From a virus (Duplodnaviria; Caudoviricetes), in IMG/VR virus record IMGVR_UViG_3300020162_000027, positions 1 through 25,047 of that record: a stretch of 25,047 bases of DNA. One strand, 5' to 3'. Positions 12,098 to 25,047 of the stretch are shown in pieces (within the stretch, counting starts at the first letter, position 1; every line of letters starts with the position of its first letter). Made by a program: the position numbers and the translations under genes. The notes under the pieces were generated by a model. That model was given only the letters and a program-made list of their open reading frames with translations. It was not told where the DNA came from and did not search any database.

Positions 12098-12122
12098 AAA
12101 AAGGGGAGCATTGCACTCCCCC
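12096..12122 (-). terminator. Rho-independent terminator between the convergent arms (possibly bidirectional)
   Basis: Stem GGGGAG (12103-12108) / CTCCCC (12116-12121). On the minus strand it is followed by a T7 run (A 12096-12102). Located between converging stop codons. Confidence 0.85.
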
Positions 12123-12131
12123 TACTACATA

Positions 12132-12278
12132 TTAGCCCTTCAGAAAGGCTAGAACTTCGTCAAAAGTTTCAAAGACTGCGATCTTGTTATCTTGTTGTTT
12201 AGTCAAGACATCAAGTTTGGTTGCATTCACGATGTAACCATTTGATACTTTATTTACTTGCACGCCATCATAACTCAT
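12132..12278 (-). CDS. Hypothetical protein, 48 aa (absent from ORF track)
   Basis: MSYDGVQVNKVSNGYIVNATKLDVLTKQQDNKIAVFETFDEVLAFLKG; strong AAGGAG RBS 5 nt before the ATG. Confidence 0.8.
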   Translation of the reverse strand: MSYDGVQVNKVSNGYIVNATKLDVLTKQQDNKIAVFETFDEVLAFLKG

Positions 12279-12287
12279 ACTATCTCC

Positions 12288-12431
12288 TTATGTTAATGAA
12301 ATTACTACTCTAAATATGAGAAGTTCTAAGACTAAGTAAGTACCGTCGTCGTCTAACTCAGGCATGTATTTAGTCTCAACTATCTCAAAACCAAGTGATA
12401 CACCGCATATAGGTTTAATTGATACTTCCAT
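12288..12431 (-). CDS. Hypothetical protein, 47 aa (absent from ORF track)
   Basis: MEVSIKPICGVSLGFEIVETKYMPELDDDGTYLVLELLIFRVVISLT; TAATG overlap with the RNR stop codon; tiles the gap exactly. Confidence 0.7.
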   Translation of the reverse strand: MEVSIKPICGVSLGFEIVETKYMPELDDDGTYLVLELLIFRVVISLT

Positions 12432-14299
12432 TATGCTATCTCACAACTTCCACCAGTACACGCAAGTGTCTGGGATCCTTCGGTATTATCATCCTTTTCA
12501 ATAAGATCTTCCCAGTTAATATTACCAGGCATCTTGGATGCTAATTCTTTGTATTGCTCTTCTGTAATGTCTTCATATGGTGCTTGTTGATACGTATGAT
12601 TTGAATGAGGAAGGAAACTAATACCACTAACCTCATCAAAGTATTTCCATACCCATGCACCTACTTCAGGCCATTCATTATCTGTTACTGTAATAGTTAC
12701 AGAAGGTTTGTGCTCACACCAATGACGTTGATAAACTAACCATAGGTTAAGTTGTTCTATAGCAGTCATGTCATTACGTGTTATAGCACTCTTAGGGGCT
12801 TTCATCGGAAAGCTGAACACAGCTGTCGAGTCAGGCCTAAACACTTCGTCTTCCACTGGGAAACCTTTTTCTTTAAGGAACGAGTATATAGGATCCTTTT
12901 TATCAATCCGTACCCTTCGTATGTAATAAGCATTGTGTCTAGCATGAATGCCACTAGCACTATCCACCAACTGGGATACGGTACCTGAGGGTTTAACACA
13001 AGTGATAGAAGCAGAAGGAGGAATACCCAGTTCTTTAGAAAGTTGTTTATTTGTTTCTCTTGCTGCATCACGTAATTCCTCTAATAGTAATGGATCAGGA
13101 TTGTTAGTTACTTTACAATCCATAATACCTGTTAATGATACTCCTAATAAACGTTCTTCCTCAGTATTCTTTTTCCATTCTTCAGATAAGAATTGGAAGT
13201 TTATGAGTGTAGACTGTAGAGTACCTAAAATTGTAGCTAACTTAACTTTTCTAAGTAAGGAATCTCTAGTATCTTTTTCCCGTACAACAACTTCTGTAAG
13301 ATTACAGAATTGTTTATCACGGAGGATAATTTCTGAACATGGATTGGTTCCGTAGCTGAGAGTTGGATCTCTTCGTCCCCACTTTGCTGCTTGATTTTGA
13401 GAAGCAACTCGATTAAATACTCCTCGTTCACCTGACTTGGACTTAACCAAGCTGACCCATTCTTCCATGAAAGTTTCACTATCGGGTTTCTCAGTATATG
13501 CAACTGAATTGTTGGCAAGACCTCTGTATGGGTAATCATTATACCATGCTCCTGTTTTTGCATCACGCATTCTTTTATCTGTTAAGTTACTTAAAGAAAT
13601 AAGAGCTGATCTCCTAACACCTCCAACTACAACAATCTCACCAATCATACATAAGATGTCATGTACTTCTAAACTATTAAGCTTTCTTCCTGCAGATCCT
13701 TTGCAAGTATCCACCGTGAACTTGAACAATTTACGCAATGGGTCAGGGCCACTAGCTCTCCCTCCAAATGTTTTAAGTCTTGCTCCAGCTGGTCTGACTT
13801 TGCTGTAGTCAACTTGAGGAATGTCTCCTTCCCACAATGAAGACAATAGCTTTTTAAATGCTTTAGCCCACCCAAGTTTTGAGTCTCCAACTGATATGAC
13901 ATCATCAACCTCCTTAAAAGAACTAGGTAATGGTGGTAACTTATCAATCTCTTGACGTTCACATGAGAACCCAACACCTGTACCATTCATTAGAATGTAA
14001 AGAGCTTCAGAGAATGCTCTCTTATTATTAATAGCAAGGTATGAACAGTTATAAGCTGCTATGTTATCTCGTTCAACTGCATCCCCTGCAGTCATTAGTA
14101 GACGCATAGAGGGCATAACCTCTAAGTCTATAATAGATTGTCTTAACTCATCCCAGGGTATTGTAGTAGAAGTTTTAGTCTTTAGATAAGACACAAGTCT
14201 ATCTACAGTTTCTGTCCATGTCTCTCTTCGGTCTTTATCAGGCAACCATCTAGCATAACGGCTTGCATGAATAAAACGTTGGTAGTCTGTTAATTGCAT
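12431..14299 (-). CDS. nrdJ: Class II adenosylcobalamin-dependent ribonucleotide reductase (monomeric RTPR type)
   Basis: PSMR, AAYNC, VVVGGVRRSA, TNPCSEI (thiyl-radical Cys), TCVKPSGTVSQL and C-terminal redox pair ACTGGSCEI. No nrdB in the window. Confidence 0.93.
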   Translation of the reverse strand: MQLTDYQRFIHASRYARWLPDKDRRETWTETVDRLVSYLKTKTSTTIPWDELRQSIIDLEVMPSMRLLMTAGDAVERDNIAAYNCSYLAINNKRAFSEALYILMNGTGVGFSCERQEIDKLPPLPSSFKEVDDVISVGDSKLGWAKAFKKLLSSLWEGDIPQVDYSKVRPAGARLKTFGGRASGPDPLRKLFKFTVDTCKGSAGRKLNSLEVHDILCMIGEIVVVGGVRRSALISLSNLTDKRMRDAKTGAWYNDYPYRGLANNSVAYTEKPDSETFMEEWVSLVKSKSGERGVFNRVASQNQAAKWGRRDPTLSYGTNPCSEIILRDKQFCNLTEVVVREKDTRDSLLRKVKLATILGTLQSTLINFQFLSEEWKKNTEEERLLGVSLTGIMDCKVTNNPDPLLLEELRDAARETNKQLSKELGIPPSASITCVKPSGTVSQLVDSASGIHARHNAYYIRRVRIDKKDPIYSFLKEKGFPVEDEVFRPDSTAVFSFPMKAPKSAITRNDMTAIEQLNLWLVYQRHWCEHKPSVTITVTDNEWPEVGAWVWKYFDEVSGISFLPHSNHTYQQAPYEDITEEQYKELASKMPGNINWEDLIEKDDNTEGSQTLACTGGSCEIA

Positions 14300-14318
14300 T
14301 ATTTATTCCTTTTATAAT

Positions 14319-14347
14319 ATTATATCAAGCTTTTGTATCATTGTCAA
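14319..14347 (-). promoter_or_regulatory. Perfect-consensus sigma70 promoter upstream of nrdJ
   Basis: Minus strand TTGACA (14347-14342), 17-nt spacer ATGATACAAAAGCTTGA, TATAAT (14324-14319), then AAGGA RBS and ATG at 14299. Confidence 0.85.
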
Positions 14348-14876
14348 TAATAAAAACATAATTAACTACTCTTCTTATGTTGTTACCTGTAGGAGGGGTT
14401 GCTCTATGTTCTATATTAGATCTAAATAAAATAGCATCACCTGCTGTAGGCTTATATCTTTTAATACCTTCATCTGTTTTAAATACAGTATCACCATCAG
14501 AGTCATCTACAAAGTAAAGTAAAGTATAATAGTTATCAAACTTAATATCGGTATGCCAACTCTTTTCTAAATCAACTTCAGTATAACTTTGTACTGGTAA
14601 GAAATTAGTTTTAATTCTATGAAGAAGTTTTACATCAGTACCTATTCGTTCATTCAATAACTTTATTAAGTATGTAAAAAAATGTATATACTGACAAACT
14701 ACATGACCTTCTTGTATTGTTCCATGTGTAAACTGGTAAATGTTATCTTTAGAATCTTCATTGTAAGAACTATGTTTATTAAATTCCCAAGCAAAAAGAT
14801 GTGAATCTAATAGTTCTTTTATTTTAGTTTTAAATTCTTCAGAACCTAAGTCTTTTAAATATGTAAGTTTATCCAT
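14325..14876 (-). CDS. 2OG-Fe(II) oxygenase superfamily protein (start revised to MDKLTYL at 14876)
   Basis: HxD...H...R pattern: WHTD, TLLYFV, SDGDTVF, HRATPP, RRVVNY. GGAGG RBS and TAATG coupling support the 14876 start over 14903. Confidence 0.8.
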   Translation of the reverse strand: MDKLTYLKDLGSEEFKTKIKELLDSHLFAWEFNKHSSYNEDSKDNIYQFTHGTIQEGHVVCQYIHFFTYLIKLLNERIGTDVKLLHRIKTNFLPVQSYTEVDLEKSWHTDIKFDNYYTLLYFVDDSDGDTVFKTDEGIKRYKPTAGDAILFRSNIEHRATPPTGNNIRRVVNYVFIIDNDTKA

Positions 14877-15610
14877 TACTTTCCTCCAAATCCAAAAGGA
14901 CATTTCTTTTTAGACTCTTGATCATCTATTAGTTTTTTATATTTATTATAATTAAGACTAAAAGCAATTTGAGGTATTTTAATTTTATTCCATTTATCTA
15001 CTGACACTACATGGTATTTAAATTCAACTTCTTTTTCTGTAAGAGGTATAAATTGAAGTATAGGAGTATTAAATTTTAATATAGTTTCAAAGTTCTTTTC
15101 CATATCAACAAACATATTAATATTAGTACCTGATTGATATTTAAAATTAAGTATACCTTCTGGAATAAAAAAAGGTTCTTGAAGTTTAAAATTCCAAAAG
15201 GGTTTTTGAACTACCCAATTAATAGCTTCTTTTGTTTTTAACAACCAAGGTGAGTTTAGTTTAATATGTTTATATTGTTTAGGATCTGCATAAGTTTTCC
15301 ATTGATCTTCTGGATGAGGACTTACAGGAGTTTCTCTATCAGCAGGGTAAGAAGTTAAATTTCCATTCTCTGCACTAATAATAAACTCTGTCCATAAAGG
15401 CATAATAAAACTATTTTTATATAAATCAATTATACCTGAACATTGTTTAATTGTTGATTCTTTTATAACACCATGACCATAACTATTAGGTGTATTTTTA
15501 AACCACTCAGGCCAGTGTTTAGATGCTCGTTCTATTGGTGATAAATTAATATACTTTTCATCAGTAACAAAAGCATCTACTATTATTTTATTTCTTTTAA
15601 AGAAAAACAT
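14876..15610 (-). CDS. Conserved phage protein of the type found beside 2OG-Fe(II) oxygenases (possibly DUF6065-like beta fold)
   Basis: PEWFK...TIKQCSGIIDLY..FIMPLW...KLNSPW...TPILQFIPL, with C-terminal KCPFGFG. AAGGAG RBS. Family name is tentative. Confidence 0.5.
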   Translation of the reverse strand: MFFFKRNKIIVDAFVTDEKYINLSPIERASKHWPEWFKNTPNSYGHGVIKESTIKQCSGIIDLYKNSFIMPLWTEFIISAENGNLTSYPADRETPVSPHPEDQWKTYADPKQYKHIKLNSPWLLKTKEAINWVVQKPFWNFKLQEPFFIPEGILNFKYQSGTNINMFVDMEKNFETILKFNTPILQFIPLTEKEVEFKYHVVSVDKWNKIKIPQIAFSLNYNKYKKLIDDQESKKKCPFGFGGK

Positions 15611-15612
15611 TA

Positions 15613-16275
15613 TTACTCCTTAAAGTATTCAGTAACATCAAATTCAAAGTTACCAGATACAGAAATTCTGTAGTCATCAGATGTATAAAAAGGATATACA
15701 CAATGATTTAAATTAGCTGGAAATACTATTAATTTGTTATTCCATTTTTTATCTGCTGGTATTTGAAATGTTTCTATTTGGTTATTAGGACTATAAAATA
15801 TAAACTGAAAATTACCAGGATAACATGAATTAGAATTTATACTAGAAGGTCTAGCCATTTCTTCATTTATATCATAAGGTATATCTATCCATAATACAAA
15901 ACTAAAAGTACCACTATGTATATGAACTGGATTAAATTCATATTTTTTCATAAAGTTTACCCAAAGTCTTGTAAGACTATAAGGAAAAAACTCTTTATTA
16001 ATAGCAACATCATGAACAACTCCTACTCTTTCTTGAAGTTCTATAATGTAAGGTTTAAGGAGTTTTGAAATAGCATCTTTAGAAAGAATTAATGTATATT
16101 CTTTTTCTAAATTACCTGCTAAATCTCTATGAGGAGTAGAAGTATTAAAGCTTTCTTTTATACTTTTTATCTCATCTTTAATAGTTTTTAGTTCTTCTTC
16201 AGTAAGATCTACTTCTAAAAAACCTACACGATTACCTAAATTTCCTATTTTATAATCATGTATTTTAGTAGTCAT
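15613..16275 (-). CDS. Putative 2OG-Fe(II) oxygenase (TIGR02466 / 2OG-FeII_Oxy_5-like)
   Basis: WVNFMKKYEFNPVHIHSGTFSFVLWI...FPANLNHCVYPF...RISVSGN, i.e. HxH...H...RxS. Confidence 0.8.
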   Translation of the reverse strand: MTTKIHDYKIGNLGNRVGFLEVDLTEEELKTIKDEIKSIKESFNTSTPHRDLAGNLEKEYTLILSKDAISKLLKPYIIELQERVGVVHDVAINKEFFPYSLTRLWVNFMKKYEFNPVHIHSGTFSFVLWIDIPYDINEEMARPSSINSNSCYPGNFQFIFYSPNNQIETFQIPADKKWNNKLIVFPANLNHCVYPFYTSDDYRISVSGNFEFDVTEYFKE

Positions 16276-16432
16276 CTTCTATCTCTTTACATAAATGTTC
16301 GTAACGTTCTTCTATAATATCTTCAAATCGTTCTACTAAATCATAAGAAGTAATATTTAATAACTCTAGAAGAGTTACCTCATCTAGTCTATTTGCAAGT
16401 CGTTCTTTCAACTCTTCTAAAGTTAATTGCAT
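16265..16432 (-). CDS. Small acidic helical phage protein, 55 aa (absent from ORF track)
   Basis: MQLTLEELKERLANRLDEVTLLELLNITSYDLVERFEDIIEERYEHLCKEIEDDY; starts 1 nt after the DUF3310 stop and overlaps the next start. Confidence 0.75.
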   Translation of the reverse strand: MQLTLEELKERLANRLDEVTLLELLNITSYDLVERFEDIIEERYEHLCKEIEDDY

Positions 16433-16433
16433 A

Positions 16434-16658
16434 TTATGTTTTAAGTTCTTTCAATAATTCTATATAATGAATGGCTTTATCAAGGTCTTCTACTCCACCT
16501 TTTTCACGCCATCTACAAATGTATTTAATAATATTACCTTCAATGTAAGGTATATTATTTTTAGTAATAAATTCAACAGGTTGAATTACATACTTCTTGT
16601 AATGTGTACCTGCCACTTGAGTTTGTATTGCTTTTTTTAGTTCTGGAAATTTAGCCAT
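16434..16658 (-). CDS. DUF3310 / SaV-like protein (related to T7 gp1.7 nucleotide kinase domain)
   Basis: QVAGTHY...IQPVEFI...EGNIIKYICRW..KGGVEDLDKAIHY signature. Confidence 0.8.
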   Translation of the reverse strand: MAKFPELKKAIQTQVAGTHYKKYVIQPVEFITKNNIPYIEGNIIKYICRWREKGGVEDLDKAIHYIELLKELKT

Positions 16659-16664
16659 AGTATT

Positions 16665-16693
16665 ATTATACCATCCTTTTTAAATATTGACAA
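16665..16693 (-). promoter_or_regulatory. Sigma70 promoter with extended -10, directly upstream of the DUF3310 ATG
   Basis: TTGTCA (16693-16688), 17-nt spacer ATATTTAAAAAGGATGG, TATAAT (16670-16665); TGn extension present; ATG begins 6 nt after the -10. Confidence 0.75.
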
Positions 16694-17426
16694 GCTTTTG
16701 TTGGCCTTTTGGCTTAAGATTTGTACCATCTCTAAACCAGTTACCACAGGCACGACATTGGTATCGTTGATACTTACTTGTTGTAGTTATATTAAAGCCA
16801 CGTTTTTGTACGTTTTTAGACTGGCATGTAGGACAGCAGTCAGTTGTACCATTAAGGACATTGTTATTAAGATGATTTTTAATCCAAGGTTTAAAACGTT
16901 CATAGACTTTTTCTAAAAGAATAACATCGTTCTTGTTATACTCTTCCATTTTCTTCCAAGCTTTAGGTATACCTGCCATACACTGTACCCATAACTCATG
17001 CCCACTATGTTCAGTCTTCTTACCTAAACCTAGGGACTGTGCTACATAGTCTAGTTTGTTAGATACAAATCTAAATCTACCTTTAGCTACAGTAAGTAAA
17101 TCAATTTCTTTAAAAGGTGCTGGTGGAAACATACCATGCAATAAGAACTCTTTATTAAGAGAAGGTATATCAAAACGTTTACCATTGTAGTGTATAACTG
17201 CATCCGCTTCGTCAAGAAGCTTATGGATACTAGTTAACATTTTCTTATCACCAGACTTTTTAACAGAGTCAAACATCATCTTATTATCACCTAACCATTT
17301 AGCTGCGTAACACATGACATAAGAACTTTCTTGTAACTGATTGATACCAATGTTTTGATCCCAAATACCCCATACATGGGCTACATTAGGAGCCATTTCA
17401 ATATCTAATAGTAATATTTTACTCAT
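16680..17426 (-). CDS. RNase H-like (DnaQ/DEDD) 3'-5' exonuclease with C-terminal zinc ribbon (start revised to MSKILLLDIE)
   Basis: LLLDIE, HYNGKRFDIP, YNKNDV exonuclease motifs; CPTC...CRAC zinc ribbon. ATGA overlap with the HNH stop codon and AAGGA RBS. Confidence 0.85.
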   Translation of the reverse strand: MSKILLLDIEMAPNVAHVWGIWDQNIGINQLQESSYVMCYAAKWLGDNKMMFDSVKKSGDKKMLTSIHKLLDEADAVIHYNGKRFDIPSLNKEFLLHGMFPPAPFKEIDLLTVAKGRFRFVSNKLDYVAQSLGLGKKTEHSGHELWVQCMAGIPKAWKKMEEYNKNDVILLEKVYERFKPWIKNHLNNNVLNGTTDCCPTCQSKNVQKRGFNITTTSKYQRYQCRACGNWFRDGTNLKPKGQQKLVNI

Positions 17427-17779
17427 TTCTTTATCCTTTGTTTTTTCTCTTTTAGAGTTTTCTTGTCGTGGCATTCTTTACAGAGCACTTGCAAGTTATC
17501 TTTGGTACAATAAAGTCTTTCAATAAAATCATCCCAAGATGTAAACCCAACTTTAACATCAACCACTGGTTTAATATGATCAACTTGAACTTGTTTAGCA
17601 GGGTACTCTTTTTTACAAGACTTGCACTTATAGTGCATACCCATACGTTTAGTAAGTTCGTTAATCTTTTTACCAGTTTGTGCTTCTTTGAGCGTTTCGT
17701 ATTTAGGAGGCCAACGTCTGTACCCACCTCGCAACACGGACGTAATAAAACCTTTGATTCTGCCATCAGTCCACTCCAT
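17423..17779 (-). CDS. HNH endonuclease
   Basis: CKSC...QVDHIKP...NLQVLCKECHDKKT. Confidence 0.85.
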   Translation of the reverse strand: MEWTDGRIKGFITSVLRGGYRRWPPKYETLKEAQTGKKINELTKRMGMHYKCKSCKKEYPAKQVQVDHIKPVVDVKVGFTSWDDFIERLYCTKDNLQVLCKECHDKKTLKEKKQRIKK

Positions 17780-18105
17780 TATAATGTAGGTTCTTTCTTA
17801 TAAGTATCATCTATCTTAGGATTAGTAAGAAAGACATTAGCAGGGAATCTGCTTGTATCACCTTTGTACCATTGTATTACAACTTCGTCACCTTTGTGAG
17901 TATAACATGCTAGAAGACGTTCACCGTCAATCCTAGTAGCTACTGCAGTTAAAGGGTATAAACTTTTAAGTTCAGGTAAAACACAATCAATGTTTGAAAT
18001 AGTTATAATTACATTTTGATTGTACCTGTAATGTAAATATTTATAAGCTTCAGCAATTACATTTGTACTTAAGCATAGCCCAATAATTAACAATAGCTTT
18101 TTCAT
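17779..18105 (-). CDS. Putative secreted/periplasmic protein
   Basis: N-terminal signal peptide MKKLLLIIGLCLSTNVIA; two Cys in the mature part; GGAG RBS. Confidence 0.6.
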   Translation of the reverse strand: MKKLLLIIGLCLSTNVIAEAYKYLHYRYNQNVIITISNIDCVLPELKSLYPLTAVATRIDGERLLACYTHKGDEVVIQWYKGDTSRFPANVFLTNPKIDDTYKKEPTL

Positions 18106-18134
18106 TTTAGGTCTCCACGTGATGATAGTAGTAA

Positions 18135-18338
18135 TTACGGATACTTAACACGTTCGTCAAGCATTGCATTTGAGACCTTATAAGCTTGTTTAGCTAATTC
18201 TTTAGGGTCTTCCGACCACTGAGAATCAATCATTGCATGTAATGCTTCCATTGCAATGTAATCCCTAAGGTTCATACCAGTATAGATTTGTTTCTTGTTA
18301 TCTTGACATGGGAATGCTGGTGAGTTTCCGTTACTCAT
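18135..18338 (-). CDS. Conserved small phage protein with GM[TN]LRDY motif (start revised to MSNGNS)
   Basis: PAFP...GMNLRDYIAMEAL...AKQAYKVSNAML, a widespread family in proteobacterial phages; AAGGAG RBS before 18338. Confidence 0.7.
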   Translation of the reverse strand: MSNGNSPAFPCQDNKKQIYTGMNLRDYIAMEALHAMIDSQWSEDPKELAKQAYKVSNAMLDERVKYP

Positions 18339-18389
18339 GCTACTCTCCTTCATAAATTAAAATCATTAGAGCTACCCAGACGAGGATGA

Positions 18390-18584
18390 TCAATTTAATT
18401 GACCACCTTCCTCTTTAAATAAGTCTAACTCCTGTTCAACGGCATCTGTTGCAACTTCAAAGACACCTCTACGCACCAGTTCTTTGATAGCATAGTCCAT
18501 TAAGAAGGCAGCCTCCTTAGGGTCTACATGAAACTCAAAGTCTAATGACCCATCTTTATTCTGTACACAGTTTGATATAAGCAT
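18390..18584 (-). CDS. Hypothetical protein, 64 aa
   Basis: ORF in operon orientation, overlapping the end of the exonuclease gene; plausible composition. Confidence 0.65.
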   Translation of the reverse strand: MLISNCVQNKDGSLDFEFHVDPKEAAFLMDYAIKELVRRGVFEVATDAVEQELDLFKEEGGQLN

Positions 18585-19230
18585 CTAACCAGTTTTCCTT
18601 TCCTTTTTGTCTAATCCAAAGAACCTGAGCATTCATCTTAAACTCTTCATCGTTACTATAAGCATTCCTAACTGCGTCAAACAAATGTTGTTCTGTTTCA
18701 CATTCAGCTAAGATTTTATCTGCTTTCTTAGTACCAATCTTTTCTATGCCTTTAATGTTATCAGACCTATCACCCATAAGACATTGCTTATAAAAGTGTT
18801 TAAGTCCTTCAAACTCATTAACCTCACAGAATTCATTCTTAACAAAGTTAAAATGTTTACCAGGAATCATAAGAAGATCTTTATCTATAGAACAAATAAT
18901 AGTATCATCTGTTTGATTTAACCCAAGTGCATCGTCAGCTTCCATACCATCAATAACTTCTGCATTAAATGTTGCAATAAGATATTGACGAATAGGTTCT
19001 AACCAGAATGGTTTCTCTTTAGGACGGTGGGCTTTATACTCAGGGTATATACTATACCTAAAGTTATCTTTACCCGTTAAATAAAGATTATACTCAGAAG
19101 CTTCGGTACTAACTAGGATATGATCAACTAGATCTTCTGTCCTAGAGTACGCAAAGTCCTGAGCATCATCATCTTGTAGCGTACAAGCAACCCTATACGC
19201 TACTATATCAGCATCAATAAGTGCTTTCAT
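18556..19230 (-). CDS. 5'-3' exonuclease / flap endonuclease (T7 gp6-like)
   Basis: ALIDADIVAY, YKAHR, MEADD, SIDKDL, GDRSDNIKGI..IGTKKA (helix-3-turn-helix) motifs. Confidence 0.9.
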   Translation of the reverse strand: MKALIDADIVAYRVACTLQDDDAQDFAYSRTEDLVDHILVSTEASEYNLYLTGKDNFRYSIYPEYKAHRPKEKPFWLEPIRQYLIATFNAEVIDGMEADDALGLNQTDDTIICSIDKDLLMIPGKHFNFVKNEFCEVNEFEGLKHFYKQCLMGDRSDNIKGIEKIGTKKADKILAECETEQHLFDAVRNAYSNDEEFKMNAQVLWIRQKGKENWLDAYIKLCTE

Positions 19231-19757
19231 TAGACTGGGATGTCATCCTCTAAGTCATCAAAGTTTACTTCTTTAGTAGGATTTGGATCTTTACTAAATA
19301 CATAAGCTTCAAATTGTTTAGCTGTTGCAATAACTTCATCAACAGATTTACCCTGTCCTAGTAACTCTACTGCAGTTGATAGAGATGATTGACGAATAAT
19401 AAACACTTGTCGTGCAGCTCTTTCTTCTTTAGTTTCATAGTTACTTCCTGTTACTCTACCACCTGCTTGAGCAGTTGCTGGTTTACTTTGTGTAGCCACT
19501 GGTGCATCTCCTTCATTACCAATACCTGTCCAATCCCAAAACCCTTTGGCATTCTTAACAGTCGTTACATTAACAACCTCACCTTTAGCTAAACCTTTGA
19601 TATGATTAAATACCGATGGGTTACTAAAAGACATAAGCTTTTTATTAGCTACTTGACCATTTTCAGTCTTGTAAGTTATCTCAATCTCTTGGTAAGATCT
19701 ACCATTAGATGAAGCTTTAGTACTAGGTGTTCCAACATCAACAATATTAATTAACAT
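19230..19757 (-). CDS. Putative single-stranded DNA-binding protein
   Basis: Beta-rich OB-like N-terminus, flexible linker and acidic tail NFDDLEDDIPV; located between the polymerase and exonuclease genes. Confidence 0.6.
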   Translation of the reverse strand: MLINIVDVGTPSTKASSNGRSYQEIEITYKTENGQVANKKLMSFSNPSVFNHIKGLAKGEVVNVTTVKNAKGFWDWTGIGNEGDAPVATQSKPATAQAGGRVTGSNYETKEERAARQVFIIRQSSLSTAVELLGQGKSVDEVIATAKQFEAYVFSKDPNPTKEVNFDDLEDDIPV

Positions 19758-20466
19758 TTACTATCTCCATGTTACCCCAATTAGGTCCAACTTGACATTC
19801 GACCCTCATAGGAAGATTAAATTCAACCCCAAATAACTTCTTAAAGTTAAGAGGGATGTCCGTAAAACAGTCATCAACTAACTTAACTATACTATTATTA
19901 TCGCATAGTTTCTCATCAAAGTCAACTATAATCGAATCATGAACAGTGTTTATTAACTTAGTTCCTTCCACTTTCTTTAGTCTATTAGCTAGACTAACTC
20001 TTGCTATAGCCATCAAATCAGCACCGAGTCCTTGCACTGGATAGTTAAGGATTCGTGTGCGGGGCCATTTAGCTTTACCATATCTTATTTCTGGTTCATA
20101 ATGATATACCCTCCCTGTAGGCATAGTTATCTTTCTATCTCTTTTAGCTTTCTCAACAATCTCTTTGTGCCAGGTATCAAGGCCACTATACTTTTTATAA
20201 AACTCATCAATGATGTTTTGCCAGAACGTTTCTTGTTTACTGGTATCAGTGAAGTTAGGATCATTAGCATAACTATAAGCACTGCCACCATAGATGAGTC
20301 TGAAAACAAATGTCTTAGCAATGAGACGAGAAGGTAGACCGAACCTAACCTGATTATCCGTGTGCTGATCTGTCCCATCCCATATCTCCTTAATAGCAGT
20401 TTGATCTTGTGATAGATAAGCTGCACATACCCATTCTAGTGCTTTATCATCAGCTTGTAACAGCAT
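19747..20466 (-). CDS. DNA polymerase family A, C-terminal catalytic part (start revised to MLLQADD at 20466)
   Basis: Motif A LQADDKALE, motif B RLIAKTFVFRLIYG, LNYPVQGLGAD, motif C TVHDS. GGAG 5 nt upstream of the ATG. Confidence 0.88.
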   Translation of the reverse strand: MLLQADDKALEWVCAAYLSQDQTAIKEIWDGTDQHTDNQVRFGLPSRLIAKTFVFRLIYGGSAYSYANDPNFTDTSKQETFWQNIIDEFYKKYSGLDTWHKEIVEKAKRDRKITMPTGRVYHYEPEIRYGKAKWPRTRILNYPVQGLGADLMAIARVSLANRLKKVEGTKLINTVHDSIIVDFDEKLCDNNSIVKLVDDCFTDIPLNFKKLFGVEFNLPMRVECQVGPNWGNMEIVNVN

Positions 20467-21619
20467 ACCTACTCCCAAATAGTTGTTTAATTTCTCCATC
20501 AAAGTTTTGTAAGTTAGGTTTAGTTGACGATAGTCTACCTGTCTTAGCAACACATTGATTAAGAACACCGTGTAGTGTACCTTCTTTCCAGTTCATAGTC
20601 TTGCGTAGTTCTACTAATCCTTCATAGTATGAAGACAATCGTTTCTCTAATGTAGCTCTAGCTAAGATAAGTTCTATTAATTCTTTAGCTTTTTTACTAC
20701 CTTTAAGAGATCGTAATGTCTGTTCATCATTAGAAAAGAATCCTTCTTTCTCTAGTTCAGAACCCTTAAGAGGATTAATCATACGCTCAAACTCTATGAC
20801 GTACTCTTTCCATTGGCTTTTTGGTAAGCCCGCTCTAGTGCCTGTTTTAAAAGTACCAATAACTTCTTGACGTCTGACTTTAATAGATCCCCCATAGAGA
20901 AGAGCACTAATATGTTCAGAGCTATTAGCATTAAACTCAGGAAGGTTATGGTAAGTGTAAAGAATTGAATCAATACGTTCAATATCTTTTGTAGTTTCTT
21001 GCCCAAGCCTAACACACTCTGTTTCATTGAATTTAAGACCATTGTATTCCATCTCCTCTAATATTAATAAGTCTTGGTTATGTAAACTAAGAAGTCTTTG
21101 CATCTGTTTTGTACCAGCCGCAAATTCTTCCATCTGTTTCTCATACACTTTTTGCGTTAACTGCAAATCTTGTGTGAGGTATTCTTCTAACAAGTCTTTA
21201 GGTATCTTGTCAGTATCTATTCCGTTCTTCCAATAATCAGTAGCAATGATATCAAGTTTACTACCCAAAGCATAGCTGTCAGCAACGCCATTGAGACTTG
21301 GATAGGGATGTTGTTGGCCCGTAAGTATAAAATGAGCCAACTGACAATCCCAAATACGCTTATCCATAAAATTAATTCCATAGCGTCTTAACCAATGCAA
21401 GTCAAACTTAATGTTAAAGCCAACAAGAGTATCGTGACTGTCGATGCTTCTTTGTATAGCGTCAAGTCTTTCTCTGTTAGGACTTCCGCTATAATCAATA
21501 TCATATAGGTAAGTGCCATCAGTACTATAGAGTCCAACATAACAAAGTTTATTCCTTTCATCAAATGGATTGCCCTTATTACTTATGGTTGTCTCAACAT
21601 CTAATATTAAGCTGCGCAA
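20450..21619 (-). CDS. DNA polymerase family A, N-terminal part (3'-5' exonuclease plus thumb), TTG start
   Basis: ExoI LDVET, ExoII GFNIKFDL, ExoIII YLTQDL; FNANSSEH; ends shortly after KTGRLSSTKPNLQN. Confidence 0.88.
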   Translation of the reverse strand: MRSLILDVETTISNKGNPFDERNKLCYVGLYSTDGTYLYDIDYSGSPNRERLDAIQRSIDSHDTLVGFNIKFDLHWLRRYGINFMDKRIWDCQLAHFILTGQQHPYPSLNGVADSYALGSKLDIIATDYWKNGIDTDKIPKDLLEEYLTQDLQLTQKVYEKQMEEFAAGTKQMQRLLSLHNQDLLILEEMEYNGLKFNETECVRLGQETTKDIERIDSILYTYHNLPEFNANSSEHISALLYGGSIKVRRQEVIGTFKTGTRAGLPKSQWKEYVIEFERMINPLKGSELEKEGFFSNDEQTLRSLKGSKKAKELIELILARATLEKRLSSYYEGLVELRKTMNWKEGTLHGVLNQCVAKTGRLSSTKPNLQNFDGEIKQLFGSRYAVTS

Positions 21620-21765
21620 TCGCCAGTTCCTTGGTTAAGTGGGTAATATTTATTTACTGCTTCAAGCAGAGTTTCATTAGGACCCATTAGATCTATTATA
21701 TCATAGATGTCTGCTCTGTTTAAGTCAGGTCTAGCATTTAAAACTTCTGTAAAATCATTATCCAA
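21607..21765 (-). CDS. Hypothetical protein, 52 aa, TTG start (absent from ORF track)
   Basis: MDNDFTEVLNARPDLNRADIYDIIDLMGPNETLLEAVNKYYPLNQGTGDCAA; AAGGAG RBS; fills the helicase-polymerase gap. Confidence 0.65.
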   Translation of the reverse strand: MDNDFTEVLNARPDLNRADIYDIIDLMGPNETLLEAVNKYYPLNQGTGDCAA

Positions 21766-21783
21766 AATAGATACTCCTTTAAT

Positions 21784-23025
21784 TTAAATATCAATATATC
21801 TTGCAATGTCTGCTTTAATTAACACTTGTGTAGAACCATGTCTTAGGTCAGGTAAAGTATCTTTATCACCTACTAATTTATTCTTACAGATATTAAAATA
21901 TCTACTACGACTAAGGTTATCTTGTTCTTTACCTATCCCTAGGATCCAATCGGCTTCGCCCTGCTTAGCCGTTTTGGAGCCGTCGACTTGATCCATTGTT
22001 AGAAATAACTTGCCTTCCGCTTCGCCCGATGCTTGTGACACGGCAATGACAGGTGCGTAAGTTTTAGCAATCTCTCTAGCCCATTGATAAATTTGCTTAA
22101 GTTCAAGATCATTTCTTTCTCCTTTAAATCCACGGATCTTATCTATCTGGTCAAAGATAATAAGAGCTGGGTTATATTGTTTAAGTACTGCTTCAATGCG
22201 AGACTTGTTACTTGAATCTTCAAAGTCTAAGATATGAATACGATTACCTGTTAGTTTATTGTATCGTTCTTTGTTAGTACTTTTATCTTCAAACAACTCG
22301 TGTAATGTTAAACCAAGGGCTGCTTGGTAAACTCTGATGCCAACTTTCTTTCCTTGTTCTTCATTATTAAACCATAGTACGTCACCATCAGTTTGACCCA
22401 CCATGTGCGTAATTTCACTCGCAAGGAATGTAGTCTTACCTGTTTCGGGGCGAGCAAAGATAAAACCAAAGTCACCTTTACGCAAAGATCCAAGAGATTT
22501 ATTAAGCCAATCAATACGCCAACGTAGACCAGGGGTAGATATTTGTGTGTCATACAAGTTTTCCAAGTCCATATCCACTGGTGTAATTTCATCTGCTTCA
22601 ACCTCTTGATGTTCAAACTCATTAAATAAATTAAGAAGATCTTCAGTAGATTTCTTACCACCTTCTACATCTAAAGCCATCATAGCTACTTGTCCTGCTA
22701 GAGAACGTCTGCGATGTTCTTCTAGTAGTGACACAATAATACTTTTGTTAGTAGTATCTTGATTAAAGATGTCTTCAATAAGAAGACTTAACTCTTTACG
22801 TTCTTGATCACGCAATAAGTAATTACTATTATAGAATATTTCTAATTCATTATTAGTAATAGTAGTACTAGTATTATATTTACTATAGTATAATGATACT
22901 ATATTAAATAACTTATATATATCATTATAATTAATCTTTATATAATTAATGTTAACATACTTGTAATACTTTGTAAAGAGATTTACGTCTTCACAAAACA
23001 ATTTAATGATTTGTTTCTCTACCAT
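21784..23025 (-). CDS. Replicative DnaB/T7 gp4-like (SF4) helicase
   Basis: Walker A ARPETGKTT, FNNEE, Walker B IIFDQID, VIAVSQ, KQGEADWILG, KNK. AAGGAG RBS. Confidence 0.9.
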   Translation of the reverse strand: MVEKQIIKLFCEDVNLFTKYYKYVNINYIKINYNDIYKLFNIVSLYYSKYNTSTTITNNELEIFYNSNYLLRDQERKELSLLIEDIFNQDTTNKSIIVSLLEEHRRRSLAGQVAMMALDVEGGKKSTEDLLNLFNEFEHQEVEADEITPVDMDLENLYDTQISTPGLRWRIDWLNKSLGSLRKGDFGFIFARPETGKTTFLASEITHMVGQTDGDVLWFNNEEQGKKVGIRVYQAALGLTLHELFEDKSTNKERYNKLTGNRIHILDFEDSSNKSRIEAVLKQYNPALIIFDQIDKIRGFKGERNDLELKQIYQWAREIAKTYAPVIAVSQASGEAEGKLFLTMDQVDGSKTAKQGEADWILGIGKEQDNLSRSRYFNICKNKLVGDKDTLPDLRHGSTQVLIKADIARYIDI

Positions 23026-23036
23026 TTAACTCCTTT

Positions 23037-23267
23037 CTACAGGCCACAAAAGGCTTCTGTAAGTTTTTTACTATTATATTTATTTTCTTTATTGTAAGTC
23101 TTTCTTTCAGTTACATCCAGATACAAAGGCGTGAGCACAAAGTGATGCACGTCTTTGAGTCTGGTAATTTGTTGTAGATCTGCAGGAAGAAATGACCAAA
23201 GGTATTTAGCACGAAGTGCTCCAGTAGAATCGTATTCTTCATATAGCCAAGCGTCAGGTTGTTTCAT
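23037..23267 (-). CDS. Hypothetical protein, 76 aa
   Basis: ATGA coupling to the primase stop and AAGGA RBS; begins MKQPDAWLY. Confidence 0.7.
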   Translation of the reverse strand: MKQPDAWLYEEYDSTGALRAKYLWSFLPADLQQITRLKDVHHFVLTPLYLDVTERKTYNKENKYNSKKLTEAFCGL

Positions 23268-23956
23268 TGTTTATCCTTTATAATCAAATCAATATCGTGT
23301 GTACTATACTCTTTAGGATCTTTATCTGTAATAATAACATTTGCATCAATACCCTTTTGTTTTAAATTTCTAGACATTTTAACGGCATCAATTGCCTTAT
23401 CCCTATCCAACCATATCCAAACCTTTTTAAAACGTTCTAGGATAGTTTCTGTAAGTTTTAGAGGCATACTTGAACCTAGTAGAGGACACCCTGTGTAACT
23501 ATTGTTAGCTTTGCTAACTTTTATTGCTGATAAAACATCTTCTACTACAATTATTGTATCACTGTTACCATAGAATAGCAAGGGTTTGTTTCCTTTAGAC
23601 AAATACTTAGGCCCATCGTTAAAGTTTCTAGCTTGGTAATAGTGTGGTAAATATACAAGCACTAAAGCTTTTCTTGACGGACACCAAGTAATGTGGTAAG
23701 TCTCACAATCTTTACTTGTTATCTCGTATTGTAATAGCCATTGCATTGGTTCTTTAGGAATGTCAAGTACTAAATCTAAGTTTAAATCATTGGGACATTC
23801 TTCGTCGATTGTTACCAATCTTCTGCGAACTCCTTCGATTGTGTTCTTAGACTTCCAATACTTACATCCAAAACAAAACAAATGATCGTCATATTCTGCC
23901 AAGTTATCTTTGCTACCACAACTTGGACAAGGTATATGACCAATGAATTTACTCAT
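23264..23956 (-). CDS. DNA primase (zinc finger plus TOPRIM), T7 gp4 primase-like, stand-alone
   Basis: CPSC...CFGC zinc-binding domain; PKY; TOPRIM VVEDVLSA and WLDRD; KDPKE. Confidence 0.88.
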   Translation of the reverse strand: MSKFIGHIPCPSCGSKDNLAEYDDHLFCFGCKYWKSKNTIEGVRRRLVTIDEECPNDLNLDLVLDIPKEPMQWLLQYEITSKDCETYHITWCPSRKALVLVYLPHYYQARNFNDGPKYLSKGNKPLLFYGNSDTIIVVEDVLSAIKVSKANNSYTGCPLLGSSMPLKLTETILERFKKVWIWLDRDKAIDAVKMSRNLKQKGIDANVIITDKDPKEYSTHDIDLIIKDKQ

Positions 23957-23982
23957 GAATATCCTTAGTAGTTATTAACAGA

Positions 23983-24058
23983 TTGACACACGACATAATT
24001 GTAAAACTATAGTATAATATTATCATAGTATAAATTTATATACTATAACTAAAAGGAG
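23983..24058 (+). promoter_or_regulatory. Candidate promoter/operator region and RBS of pqqA (divergent from the primase gene)
   Basis: TTGACA 23983-23988; -10-like TATAGT 24008-24013 and TATAAT 24013-24018 (spacings 19 and 24, non-ideal); ATAGTATA repeats; AGGAG 24054-24058. Confidence 0.5.
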
Positions 24059-24065
24059 CTACACT

Positions 24066-24137
24066 ATGTGGACTAAACCAGCAGCGACAGAAATGCGTTT
24101 TGGCTTTGAAGTTACAATGTATGTAATGAATAAGTAA
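24066..24137 (+). CDS. pqqA: Pyrroloquinoline quinone precursor peptide PqqA (23 aa, absent from ORF track)
   Basis: MWTKPAATEMRFGFEVTMYVMNK: MWxKP start, RxGFE-VT-xY with the invariant E-x-x-x-Y (E15, Y19). AGGAG RBS 7 nt upstream; hairpin downstream. Confidence 0.96.
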   Translation: MWTKPAATEMRFGFEVTMYVMNK

Positions 24138-24154
24138 TTACATACCGTATGAAT

Positions 24155-24179
24155 GCAGGCACCCGTGGGGATGCCCTGC
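24155..24179. terminator. GC-rich hairpin between the convergent pqqA and 24183-24419 genes; putative terminator
   Basis: GCAGGCACCCGTGGGGATGCCCTGC can fold (GCAGG/CCTGC or GGCA/TGCC, with CCC/GGG). No long U tract on either strand. Confidence 0.5.
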
Positions 24180-24182
24180 GTT

Positions 24183-24419
24183 CTACGGCTTATAATTCTT
24201 AATCACTTCACCCGTGGACTTGTCAAGTTCATACTCAGCTAATTGTTTTTTATCATGATGATGTTGTACAATATCTGCAATGATTTCTACATTAGCTAAT
24301 TCTTCTTCAGTTAAAGTAATGCCTTGTTTTTTAAAGATACGATCCCAATTATCTTCACCTTCTTTAGATAGTCTTTTATTAATAAGTCTATCTCCAGTAA
24401 TATCATTCCTTGAAGCCAT
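24183..24419 (-). CDS. Hypothetical phage protein, 78 aa
   Basis: MASRNDITGD...DNWDRIF; AAGGAG RBS. Confidence 0.7.
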   Translation of the reverse strand: MASRNDITGDRLINKRLSKEGEDNWDRIFKKQGITLTEEELANVEIIADIVQHHHDKKQLAEYELDKSTGEVIKNYKP

Positions 24420-24624
24420 CTAGCAAGTCTCCTTGTAAATCATCAAGTTCTACCTCGTCTTCGACATCGTTAGTTTCCCTTAAGTCTTCTCGTTCGAGAG
24501 ACTCAATGTCATACTCAACATCATGAAAACAATGGTTACATAAGTCTACATAAGTGCCAGTCGTTGCCGACTTGCGTGTAGCCTCGAAATCATTTAACGC
24601 TTTGTTACAAGCTAAGCATCTCAC
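24403..24624 (-). CDS. Small zinc-finger protein, 73 aa
   Basis: CLAC...CNHC with an acidic tail; ATGA coupling; AAGGAG RBS. Confidence 0.7.
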   Translation of the reverse strand: MRCLACNKALNDFEATRKSATTGTYVDLCNHCFHDVEYDIESLEREDLRETNDVEDEVELDDLQGDLLDGFKE

Positions 24625-24953
24625 CCGTATACTCCTTTAAATTGAAACTCTTGTTTACGATATAGTTGTCTAATTTTATTACAAATGTCAGCATGTTTAC
24701 TAGTACTAAGTATTGATTTTAAATGTTCTCTAAGGTTTTCTTTAGTAAACACTTGATACTCGTCAAAGACTTGATTTACATGGATAGTTCTAGAAGCATC
24801 ATGTGCTTGCACATCTAACCAATCATCACCAGCATCTTCTACTTTATACCAAGCTAAACCATCAATAAACAAATCAATATCTTTGAATGTTACATGATTA
24901 AATTCTTCTTCAAGACCAAAGAATGTAACGAAATTACCTATTTCTACTGACAT
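24621..24953 (-). CDS. Hypothetical protein, 110 aa
   Basis: AGGAG RBS and a consensus promoter upstream; in operon orientation. Confidence 0.7.
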   Translation of the reverse strand: MSVEIGNFVTFFGLEEEFNHVTFKDIDLFIDGLAWYKVEDAGDDWLDVQAHDASRTIHVNQVFDEYQVFTKENLREHLKSILSTSKHADICNKIRQLYRKQEFQFKGVYG

Positions 24954-24955
24954 AA

Positions 24956-25047
24956 TTATAGACTCCTATAGTAATTATAAATTGCTTTTGAATATTTGTC
25001 AAGCGTAGTTCCTTCTAATCCTGGGGCAGTATTAATTTCGAATACAA
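24956..25047 (-). CDS. C-terminal fragment of an ATP-grasp (RimK-like) ligase, truncated by the window edge
   Basis: Hand-translated ...VFEINTAPGLEGTTLDKYSKAIYNYYRSL*; E-x-N-x-x-P-G is the ATP-grasp metal-binding motif. Confidence 0.75.
   Translation of the reverse strand, partial: VFEINTAPGLEGTTLDKYSKAIYNYYRSL
24974..25002 (-). promoter_or_regulatory. Perfect-consensus sigma70 promoter embedded in the 3' end of the ATP-grasp gene
   Basis: TTGACA (25002-24997), 17-nt spacer AATATTCAAAAGCAATT, TATAAT (24979-24974), then AGGAG and ATG at 24953. Confidence 0.85.

What the first reader, a model, noticed from the sequence alone, without database searches (positions are those of the whole stretch)
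23960..24180. Phage carries a lone pqqA (PQQ precursor peptide) as a self-contained antisense mini-cassette
Seen: a 72-nt ORF below the ORF-track cutoff encodes MWTKPAATEMRFGFEVTMYVMNK, with AGGAG RBS, upstream promoter-like elements and a downstream hairpin. It is the only supported + strand gene in a 13-kb minus-strand arm and sits just upstream of the primase. Known: PqqA is the ribosomal precursor whose Glu and Tyr (ExxxY) are cross-linked by PqqE/PqqD and processed by PqqB/PqqC and proteases into PQQ, the cofactor of MxaF/XoxF methanol dehydrogenases. One peptide is consumed per PQQ. From memory this sequence closely resembles Methylophilaceae PqqA. Inference: the phage supplies only the stoichiometric substrate and uses the host pqqBCDE machinery, boosting methanol oxidation and energy during infection. 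It could instead act as a decoy for PqqD/E. No other pqq gene is in the window. Viral pqqA may already have been noted in freshwater metagenomes, so novelty needs checking.
Basis: partly seen in the sequence, partly recalled or inferred. Interest (0 to 1): 0.92.

Follow-up and report, generated by a model that had tools for sequence, protein, structure and literature searches.

The report
Phage-borne PQQ precursor gene, pqqA
A phage that likely infects methanol-eating bacteria carries an intact, conserved 23-codon copy of pqqA, a peptide that the host's enzymes would likely convert into the cofactor PQQ; the same tiny gene lies unannotated in nine cultured-phage genomes from these bacteria, but a viral pqqA was already reported from lake metagenomes.

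Summary
The gene is real; the idea is not new. ORF 24066-24137 (+) passes both PqqA models at twice their cut-offs and encodes the same peptide as 32 of 123 sampled bacterial copies, mostly Methylophilaceae. It is no chimera: ten relatives share both flanks. Among relatives fetched by primase, 41 of 46 carry it, with dN/dS about 0.045 and Glu15/Tyr19 invariant. None of 59 viral records has pqqB or pqqE. Nine cultured Methylophilaceae phage records carry it unannotated. The anatomy needs correcting: a conserved -10 box and a predicted 5'-terminal hairpin precede the gene, but the downstream hairpin has no U-tract, and antisense placement is typical of this lineage, not general. Most likely it feeds the host PqqBCDE line with its only consumed component; expression and function are untested. 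Viral pqqA is in print (Lake Baikal, PMC7678222), and this scan's notes list 117 such findings in at least 95 other genomes. Not found in the papers searched: how general it is, and lone copies of other host types.

The parts
24066..24137 (+). pqqA coding sequence, 23 aa plus stop; Glu15 codon 24108-24110, Tyr19 codon 24120-24122
   Evidence: Glu15 and Tyr19 invariant in 27 of 27 distinct lineage sequences
23990..24018 (+). Predicted sigma-70 promoter: -35 ACGACA (23990-23995), 17-nt spacer, perfect -10 TATAAT (24013-24018)
   Evidence: perfect TATAAT 30-80 nt upstream in 24 of 29 distinct lineage leaders, 27 of 103 other viral and 1 of 120 bacterial; start site not mapped
24025..24046 (+). 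Predicted 5'-terminal stem-loop (8 bp, 6-nt loop), starting at the expected +1, 7 nt after the -10 box
   Evidence: compensatory changes among 10 relatives with 4-nt loops (the window is not in that subset)
24054..24058 (+). Shine-Dalgarno AGGAG, 7-nt spacer
   Evidence: SD-like word in 29 of 29 distinct lineage leaders
24145..24188 (.). Long imperfect hairpin (about 19 bp) without U-tract; folds on both strands and overlaps the stop of the convergent minus-strand ORF; likely 3'-end protection, processing site or bidirectional stop (inferred)
   Evidence: z -4.2 on +; z -6.1 for the wider minus-strand stretch; conserved, no compensatory change; no Rfam family near its threshold
23264..23956 (-). 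DNA primase, divergent neighbour (context)
   Evidence: phrog_47 E 5e-21
24183..24419 (-). 78-aa ORF of unknown function, convergent neighbour (context)
   Evidence: no PHROG match, no Pfam match over cut-off

Best explanation
This is an intact phage copy of pqqA whose peptide is likely made during infection from a predicted host-type promoter and likely handed to the host's PqqD/E/B/C enzymes to keep up PQQ for the methanol dehydrogenase of an inferred Methylophilaceae host. Inferred steps: (1) host sigma-70 polymerase transcribes the gene soon after entry; (2) the 5' hairpin and the 3' hairpin lengthen the life of a transcript of about 160 nt; (3) peptide supply limits PQQ, so an extra strong copy raises or sustains PQQ when host transcription declines; (4) more holo-dehydrogenase gives more energy and formaldehyde for nucleotides over a long latent period. 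Facing against the replication operon likely lets the cassette sit there without cutting that operon short.
For: Family match. Peptide identical to 32 of 123 bacterial copies; 103 of those 122 loci are titled Methylophilaceae or one of its genera. Helicase 63% identical to OM43 phage MEP401. Present in 41 of 46 primase relatives; pS 0.51, pN 0.038. No pqqB or pqqE over cut-off in 59 of 59 viral records, both bacterial controls positive. Hosts multiply only pqqA: 3-5 copies in 5 of 5 genomes tested, 3 in the 1.3-Mb Ca. Methylopumilus universalis; 3-12 copies against one pqqB-G set (PMC4109929). Three different PqqA queries returned the same 12 of 50,697 phage records: 9 Methylophilaceae phage isolates, 1 spring metagenome virus and 2 Acinetobacter chromosome-like contigs. 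Latent period of MEP401/402 is 17-20 h (PMC10580990). Leader hairpin z < -1.5 in 25 of 25 scored lineage leaders against 3 of 25 control segments.
Against: No RNA or protein evidence for this phage. PQQ is a reusable cofactor, so extra need within one infection is not obvious. In Acetobacter, pqqAB overexpression raised PQQ only 29% against eightfold for pqqABCDE (PMC7936290), so peptide alone need not be limiting. A complete relative with a 62% identical helicase (MW202796.1) has no pqqA, so the gene is dispensable or that phage has another host. The host is inferred, not linked. A canonical terminator follows only 5 of 28 lineage copies against 104 of 114 bacterial ones. Related contigs are not independent samples.
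Confidence: 0.65

Rival explanations
1. The peptide is processed to PQQ, but the benefit is not methanol oxidation in the infected cell: PQQ serves as a redox or antioxidant buffer, or is released at lysis and feeds the next hosts.
For: Fits all sequence evidence equally. The phage also has two or three 2OG-Fe(II) oxygenase-like genes. That methylotrophs excrete PQQ is recalled knowledge.
Against: Among cultured phages the gene is confined to those of Methylophilaceae, whose energy runs through a PQQ dehydrogenase (PMC4109929). Phages of Pseudomonas or Klebsiella, whose hosts also make PQQ (recalled), gave no hit.
Confidence: 0.15
2. Decoy or sponge: excess peptide ties up PqqD/PqqE or the maturing peptidases and lowers host PQQ, or spares SAM.
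For: A strong predicted promoter and a stabilised transcript could flood the pathway.
Against: The peptide is identical to host precursors, and leader, Glu15, Tyr19 and tail are all kept, so it should be turned over as substrate. A decoy would be expected to keep the leader and lose the core.
Confidence: 0.06
3. The peptide has a second role unrelated to PQQ, for example bait for a host protease or defence sensor, or a signal.
For: Near-core status across unrelated phage types (19 neighbourhood groups in 80 loci) is unusual for a metabolic extra. One paper reports co-expression of a PqqA-annotated RiPP family with defence systems (PMC11118758).
Against: No direct evidence; the constraint covers exactly the residues the PqqA models weight.
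Confidence: 0.08
4. Selection acts on the DNA or RNA: an integration or recombination site using the multi-copy host gene, or an antisense RNA against primase read-through.
For: In 35 of 35 lineage loci where it lies within 4 kb of primase it is on the opposite strand, 29 of them 110-135 nt away.
Against: Synonymous sites are half saturated while the peptide is fixed. No tyrosine integrase in 5 of 5 records, four of them complete (serine integrases not tested). The gene sits elsewhere in 6 relatives and in MEP401.
Confidence: 0.05
5. Assembly chimera or host contamination.
For: The record is a metagenome contig; no raw DNA reads were laid.
Against: A complete 45-kb relative aligns at 98.6% over 16308-25047 in one block, and all ten close relatives align across the cassette and into both flanks at 86-99%. 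Cultured phages carry it. No pqqB-E nearby.
Confidence: 0.01

Closest known systems
Viral PqqA of Lake Baikal population VP_266 (Coutinho et al., bioRxiv 10.1101/2020.04.02.019802, also PMC7678222)
   Same: Phage-borne pqqA, predicted Methylophilaceae host, proposed to boost methanol oxidation (passages seen).
   Different: That virus is T4-like and also encodes methanol dehydrogenase. This one is a podovirus-like phage of about 45 kb with no PQQ dehydrogenase (0 of 4 viral records). The passages seen give no account of spread, selection or regulatory signals, and state that P19250A lacks these genes, though it carries pqqA.
Orphan pqqA copies of Methylophilaceae (PF08042 / TIGR02107)
   Same: Identical peptide, own SD, stand-alone; only 13 of 80 long bacterial loci had pqqB-E beside them.
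   Different: Bacterial copies nearly always end in an intrinsic terminator (104 of 114) and rarely have a perfect -10 box (1 of 120); this lineage shows the reverse (5 of 28; 24 of 29) (AT-richness not controlled).
MEP401-related phages of OM43 (Zobellviridae subfamily, Yang et al., PMC10580990)
   Same: Replication module with split polymerase A, class II RNR and 2OG-Fe(II) oxygenases; helicase 62-63% identical. MEP401 and MEP402 carry pqqA.
   Different: The head-closure protein does not rank MEP401 among its 12 best hits, which resembles the paper's group II (not tested with TerL). In MEP401 pqqA heads the opposite arm. The paper's text and two supplements never mention pqq.
Cyanophage psbA (recalled, no call)
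   Same: A phage supplies the one rapidly consumed part of the host's energy-capturing system.
   Different: PsbA is an enzyme subunit with shown function in infection; PqqA is a cofactor precursor and nothing is shown yet.

Membership tests
PqqA (PF08042 / TIGR02107) | Score above curated cut-off | tested here: met
   40.4 vs 20 bits; 42.4 vs 21.1 bits
PqqA (PF08042 / TIGR02107) | Glu-x-x-x-Tyr core near the C-terminus of a 23-30 aa peptide | tested here: met
   Glu15 and Tyr19; invariant in 27 of 27; role from PMC10906245 passages
PqqA (PF08042 / TIGR02107) | Intact N-terminal leader for PqqD | tested here: met
   Whole peptide identical to 32 of 123 bacterial copies; binding itself not tested
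PqqA (PF08042 / TIGR02107) | Conversion to PQQ in a cell | not testable with these tools
   Needs complementation or in vitro assay
Complete pqq biosynthetic cluster | pqqB, C, D, E in the same genome | tested here: not met
   pqqB and pqqE 0 of 59 viral records; pqqC and pqqD 0 of 5 (one search had no positive control); host PqqB-E by tblastn absent from the window
Auxiliary metabolic gene | Host-like metabolic gene embedded among viral genes | tested here: met
Auxiliary metabolic gene | Maintained by selection on the product | tested here: met
   dN/dS about 0.045
Auxiliary metabolic gene | Expressed during infection | tested here: inconclusive
   The one RNA run offered does not cover this phage's leader
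Auxiliary metabolic gene | Alters host metabolism or phage yield | not testable with these tools
   Bench test needed
Intrinsic terminator (downstream hairpin) | GC-rich stem followed by a U-tract | tested here: not met
   Stem present, U-tract absent
MEP401-related Zobellviridae, group II | MEP401-type replication module | tested here: met
MEP401-related Zobellviridae, group II | Distinct capsid and terminase type | not tested
   Only a head-closure protein was compared

The most novel reading that the evidence does not exclude
Lone pqqA is the psbA of methylotroph phages: a near-core gene picked up many times by unrelated podo-, sipho- and myoviruses of Methylophilaceae, and by viruses of other PQQ-using hosts, fitted with a stronger promoter and a 5' stabilising hairpin, because the precursor peptide is the step of methanol energy capture that fails first in an infected cell. 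Gene callers have hidden it, and it would also serve as a host marker.
Probability: 0.5. Interest if true: 0.75.

Novelty: new member of a known kind. Interest (0 to 1): 0.5.

Why it matters
If the function holds, phages of the main aquatic methanol oxidisers steer host energy with a 72-nt gene that encodes a substrate, not an enzyme. Culturable systems already exist (P19250A, Venkman, MEP301, MEP401/402, Melnitz), so it can be tested now; note that one published OM43 medium contains 1 nM PQQ, which could mask the effect. It also shows that size cut-offs erase a near-core gene from phage annotations. This window itself is one more instance of a reported kind.

Tried and rejected
Expression: the single RNA run offered holds 0.06 of the words of 22500-25047. 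Its contigs match the 72-nt gene with foreign flanks and leave 23265-24029, including this phage's promoter, uncovered, so they say nothing about this phage. One of those contigs has the leader of another pqqA phage (L099), and relatives of that phage cover 30 of 30 bins of a 15-kb stretch; contigs cannot show strand or level, so this is a hint only. Consensus folding of the leader gave no structure on all 18 leaders or on the 7 six-nucleotide-loop leaders including the window, where the aligner put stems out of register; only the 10 four-nucleotide-loop leaders gave pairs, and 46 of 500 shuffles reached the same number of two-sided pairs. The window's leader folded over 51 nt is not unusual (z -0.7); over 28 nt, 2 of 500 shuffles match it. 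Conservation among the 120 pattern hits (92 distinct genes, 6 peptides) was not used as evidence of selection because the pattern fixed the peptide. Rfam, PDB by sequence, PHROGs for the peptide and tRNA scan: nothing over threshold. Nearest bacterial DNA copies differ by 3-5 of 69 nt and span several genera, so no host genus can be named. No structure or complex prediction was run: the peptide is 23 aa and the PqqA-PqqD pair is a textbook one. No DNA reads were laid on the junctions.

Full report
Observation. The window is a linear viral record of 25,047 bp, estimated 59% complete. A 23-codon ORF runs from 24066 to 24137 on +, 109 nt from the start of the divergent primase. It scores 40.4 bits on TIGR02107 (cut-off 20) and 42.4 bits on PF08042 (cut-off 21.1). 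AGGAG lies 7 nt upstream. In 12100-25047 it is the only + strand ORF of 10 codons or more that avoids the minus-strand genes and has a Shine-Dalgarno.

The phage. The minus arm holds primase, DnaB helicase, a split family-A polymerase, exonucleases, class II RNR and 2OG-Fe(II) oxygenases. The closest helicases among 50,697 phage records are MEP401 (63%), MEP402 (62%) and a spring metagenome virus MW202796.1 (62%). MEP401/402 infect OM43 Methylophilaceae, have split polymerases and a latent period of 17-20 h (PMC10580990, results section read). A head-closure protein did not list MEP401 among its 12 best of 39 hits, as expected for that paper's group II, which I did not test further. The host is inferred to be Methylophilaceae; no direct link was made.

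Not an artefact. A complete 45-kb relative aligns to 16308-25047 in one block at 98.6%, and all ten close relatives align across the cassette into both flanks at 86-99%. The gene is 36% GC in a 35% GC window.

Conservation, without circularity. I fetched 55 loci by primase kinship. Of these 35 have pqqA within the locus, all 35 opposite to primase, 29 at 110-135 nt. A whole-record search of the other 20 found it in 6. Among the 46 loci L244-L289 (primase 44-98% identical) that makes 41; the 5 misses are fragments 15-32% complete. Among the other 9 (distant or short primase matches) none has it, including two records over 90% complete with primases about 30% identical. One record has two copies. 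Over 27 distinct genes from 43 copies, pS is 0.51 and pN 0.038 (ratio about 0.045 after correction; pooled pairs, not independent), and Glu15 and Tyr19 never change. Against this, MW202796.1 and the more distant MW202697.1, both complete, lack the gene.

Spread. The 80 with flanks fall into 19 neighbourhood groups; both neighbours are opposite in 20, co-oriented in 26, mixed in 20 and undetermined in 14, so antisense placement is a trait of some lineages only. In the phage collection three different PqqA queries returned the same 12 records: P19250A, Venkman, MEP301, MEP401, MEP402, four Melnitz records, one spring metagenome virus, and two 'Acinetobacter phage' contigs, of which the one opened is a chromosomal pqqABCDE operon. 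In the five isolate records opened the gene is not annotated; Melnitz has a hypothetical gene called on the opposite strand. I could not list all Methylophilaceae phage isolates, so 'every one' is not shown. A second pattern for other PqqA types found 86 viral stretches, all short PqqA-like ORFs; two peptides match Enterobacterales and Rhodocyclaceae entries, seven others looked up are in no record.

Lone. pqqE and pqqB models passed their cut-off in 0 of 59 viral records and in both bacterial controls (one weak radical-SAM hit). PqqC and PqqD were absent from the window and four complete relatives. Host PqqB-E by tblastn hit 0 of 120, 0 of 55 and 0 of 86 viral loci and 15 of 122 bacterial loci (40, 0 and 6 of the viral loci are short).

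Host side. The pattern gave 122 bacterial loci (7 of 64 parts scanned); 103 are titled Methylophilaceae or a genus of it, 17 carry only higher ranks and 2 come from one assembly labelled Acidovorax (my count). The window's peptide is identical to 32 of 123 distinct copies. Five of five genomes have 3-5 copies; in the 1.3-Mb Ca. Methylopumilus universalis all three lie far from pqqB. PMC4109929 reports 3-12 pqqA copies against one set of the other genes (passages). The hosts thus multiply only the consumed part, and the phage adds one more copy of that kind.

Signals. A perfect TATAAT lies 47 nt before the ATG, with ACGACA 17 nt further up. The regional count of such sites is not above chance, but a perfect -10 is kept in 24 of 29 distinct lineage leaders against 1 of 120 bacterial ones (AT content not controlled). 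An 8-bp hairpin (24025-24046) begins at the expected start site. Leaders fold better than shuffles in 25 of 25 scored lineage sequences against 3 of 25 upstream controls, in 43 of 56 other viral and in 18 of 45 bacterial ones. Among 10 leaders chosen for a 4-nt loop, 98.6% of cells pair and 3 of 7 pairs show two-sided changes; wider alignments gave no consensus. That 5'-terminal hairpins slow RNA decay is recalled knowledge. The downstream hairpin (24145-24188) is strong on both strands, conserved without compensation in 10 sequences, replaced by unrelated long hairpins in other subgroups, and lacks a U-tract. It is likely an end-protecting or processing structure shared with the convergent gene, not a standard terminator.

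Mechanism. Most likely (0.65) host polymerase makes a short, stable transcript, and the peptide enters the host pathway, where PqqD binds the leader and PqqE links Glu and Tyr (PMC10906245, passages), sustaining PQQ for the methanol dehydrogenase through a long infection. Each of these steps is inferred. Against: PQQ is reused, and in Acetobacter pqqAB alone raised PQQ by only 29% (PMC7936290, passages). The decoy reading is weak because the peptide is a perfect substrate copy. A DNA- or RNA-level role is weak because synonymous sites drift freely and no tyrosine integrase is present. Expression was not shown.

Literature. Viral PqqA with this proposed role is in the Lake Baikal paper (passages), and PMC13188868 lists virus-encoded pqqA, pqqD and pqqE (passages). 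Word searches in the Melnitz, MEP301, Venkman and MEP401 papers found no phage pqq gene (MEP401 supplements). Searches (30 of 60 listed; 25 of 478 listed) showed no paper on its generality, selection or leader; the library lacks most subscription journals, and the P19250A paper was not read. PMC11118758 and PMC9851590 were seen as passages. This scan's notes hold 117 findings with these words in at least 95 genomes and none on look-alike stretches of this locus.

Verdict. Real, conserved, well supported as PqqA; function inferred; a new member of a reported kind. Interest 0.5, earned by the near-core spread and ready testability, not by this window alone.

Noticed in passing
L346-L431 (viral contigs): 86 viral stretches carry lone pqqA of non-Methylophilaceae types (D-L-R in place of E-M-R); none is beside pqqB-E. 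Includes an Enterobacterales-type peptide in a prophage-like setting (L378, L379, L412) and a Rhodocyclaceae-type one (L416). Hosts mostly unknown.
   Followed up: partly
L346:223-1413 (-): A 396-aa NAD-dependent 2-hydroxyacid dehydrogenase family gene, resembling formate dehydrogenase by recall, directly follows a viral pqqA; possibly a second C1-metabolism gene, or host DNA.
   Followed up: partly
window 19747-21619 (-): Family-A DNA polymerase is split in two overlapping ORFs with no small ORF between them, unlike MEP401; the second frame likely starts about 14 nt before the first stop (translational coupling or frameshift).
   Followed up: no
G024:C1:32547-32609 and 45383-45445: One complete relative carries two pqqA copies.
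   Followed up: no
window 24974-25002 (-): Perfect sigma-70 consensus promoter TTGACA-17-TATAAT, overlapping the end of a gene and facing the early/replication arm.
   Followed up: no
window 14325-16275 (-): Three adjacent genes of about 200-240 aa; two match 2OG-Fe(II) oxygenase families, the middle one an unknown PHROG.
   Followed up: no
window 6087-11375 (+): 1762-aa virion protein with an N-terminal lysozyme-like domain (phrog_7), likely an ejection protein.
   Followed up: no
L305 (CAKLQF020000010.1): Record filed as 'Acinetobacter phage MD-2021a' holds a chromosomal ppk-pqqABCDE region, so it is likely bacterial DNA in a phage collection.
   Followed up: yes
window 24120-24144: A second short inverted repeat overlaps the last pqqA codons and the stop; not kept in all close relatives.
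   Followed up: partly
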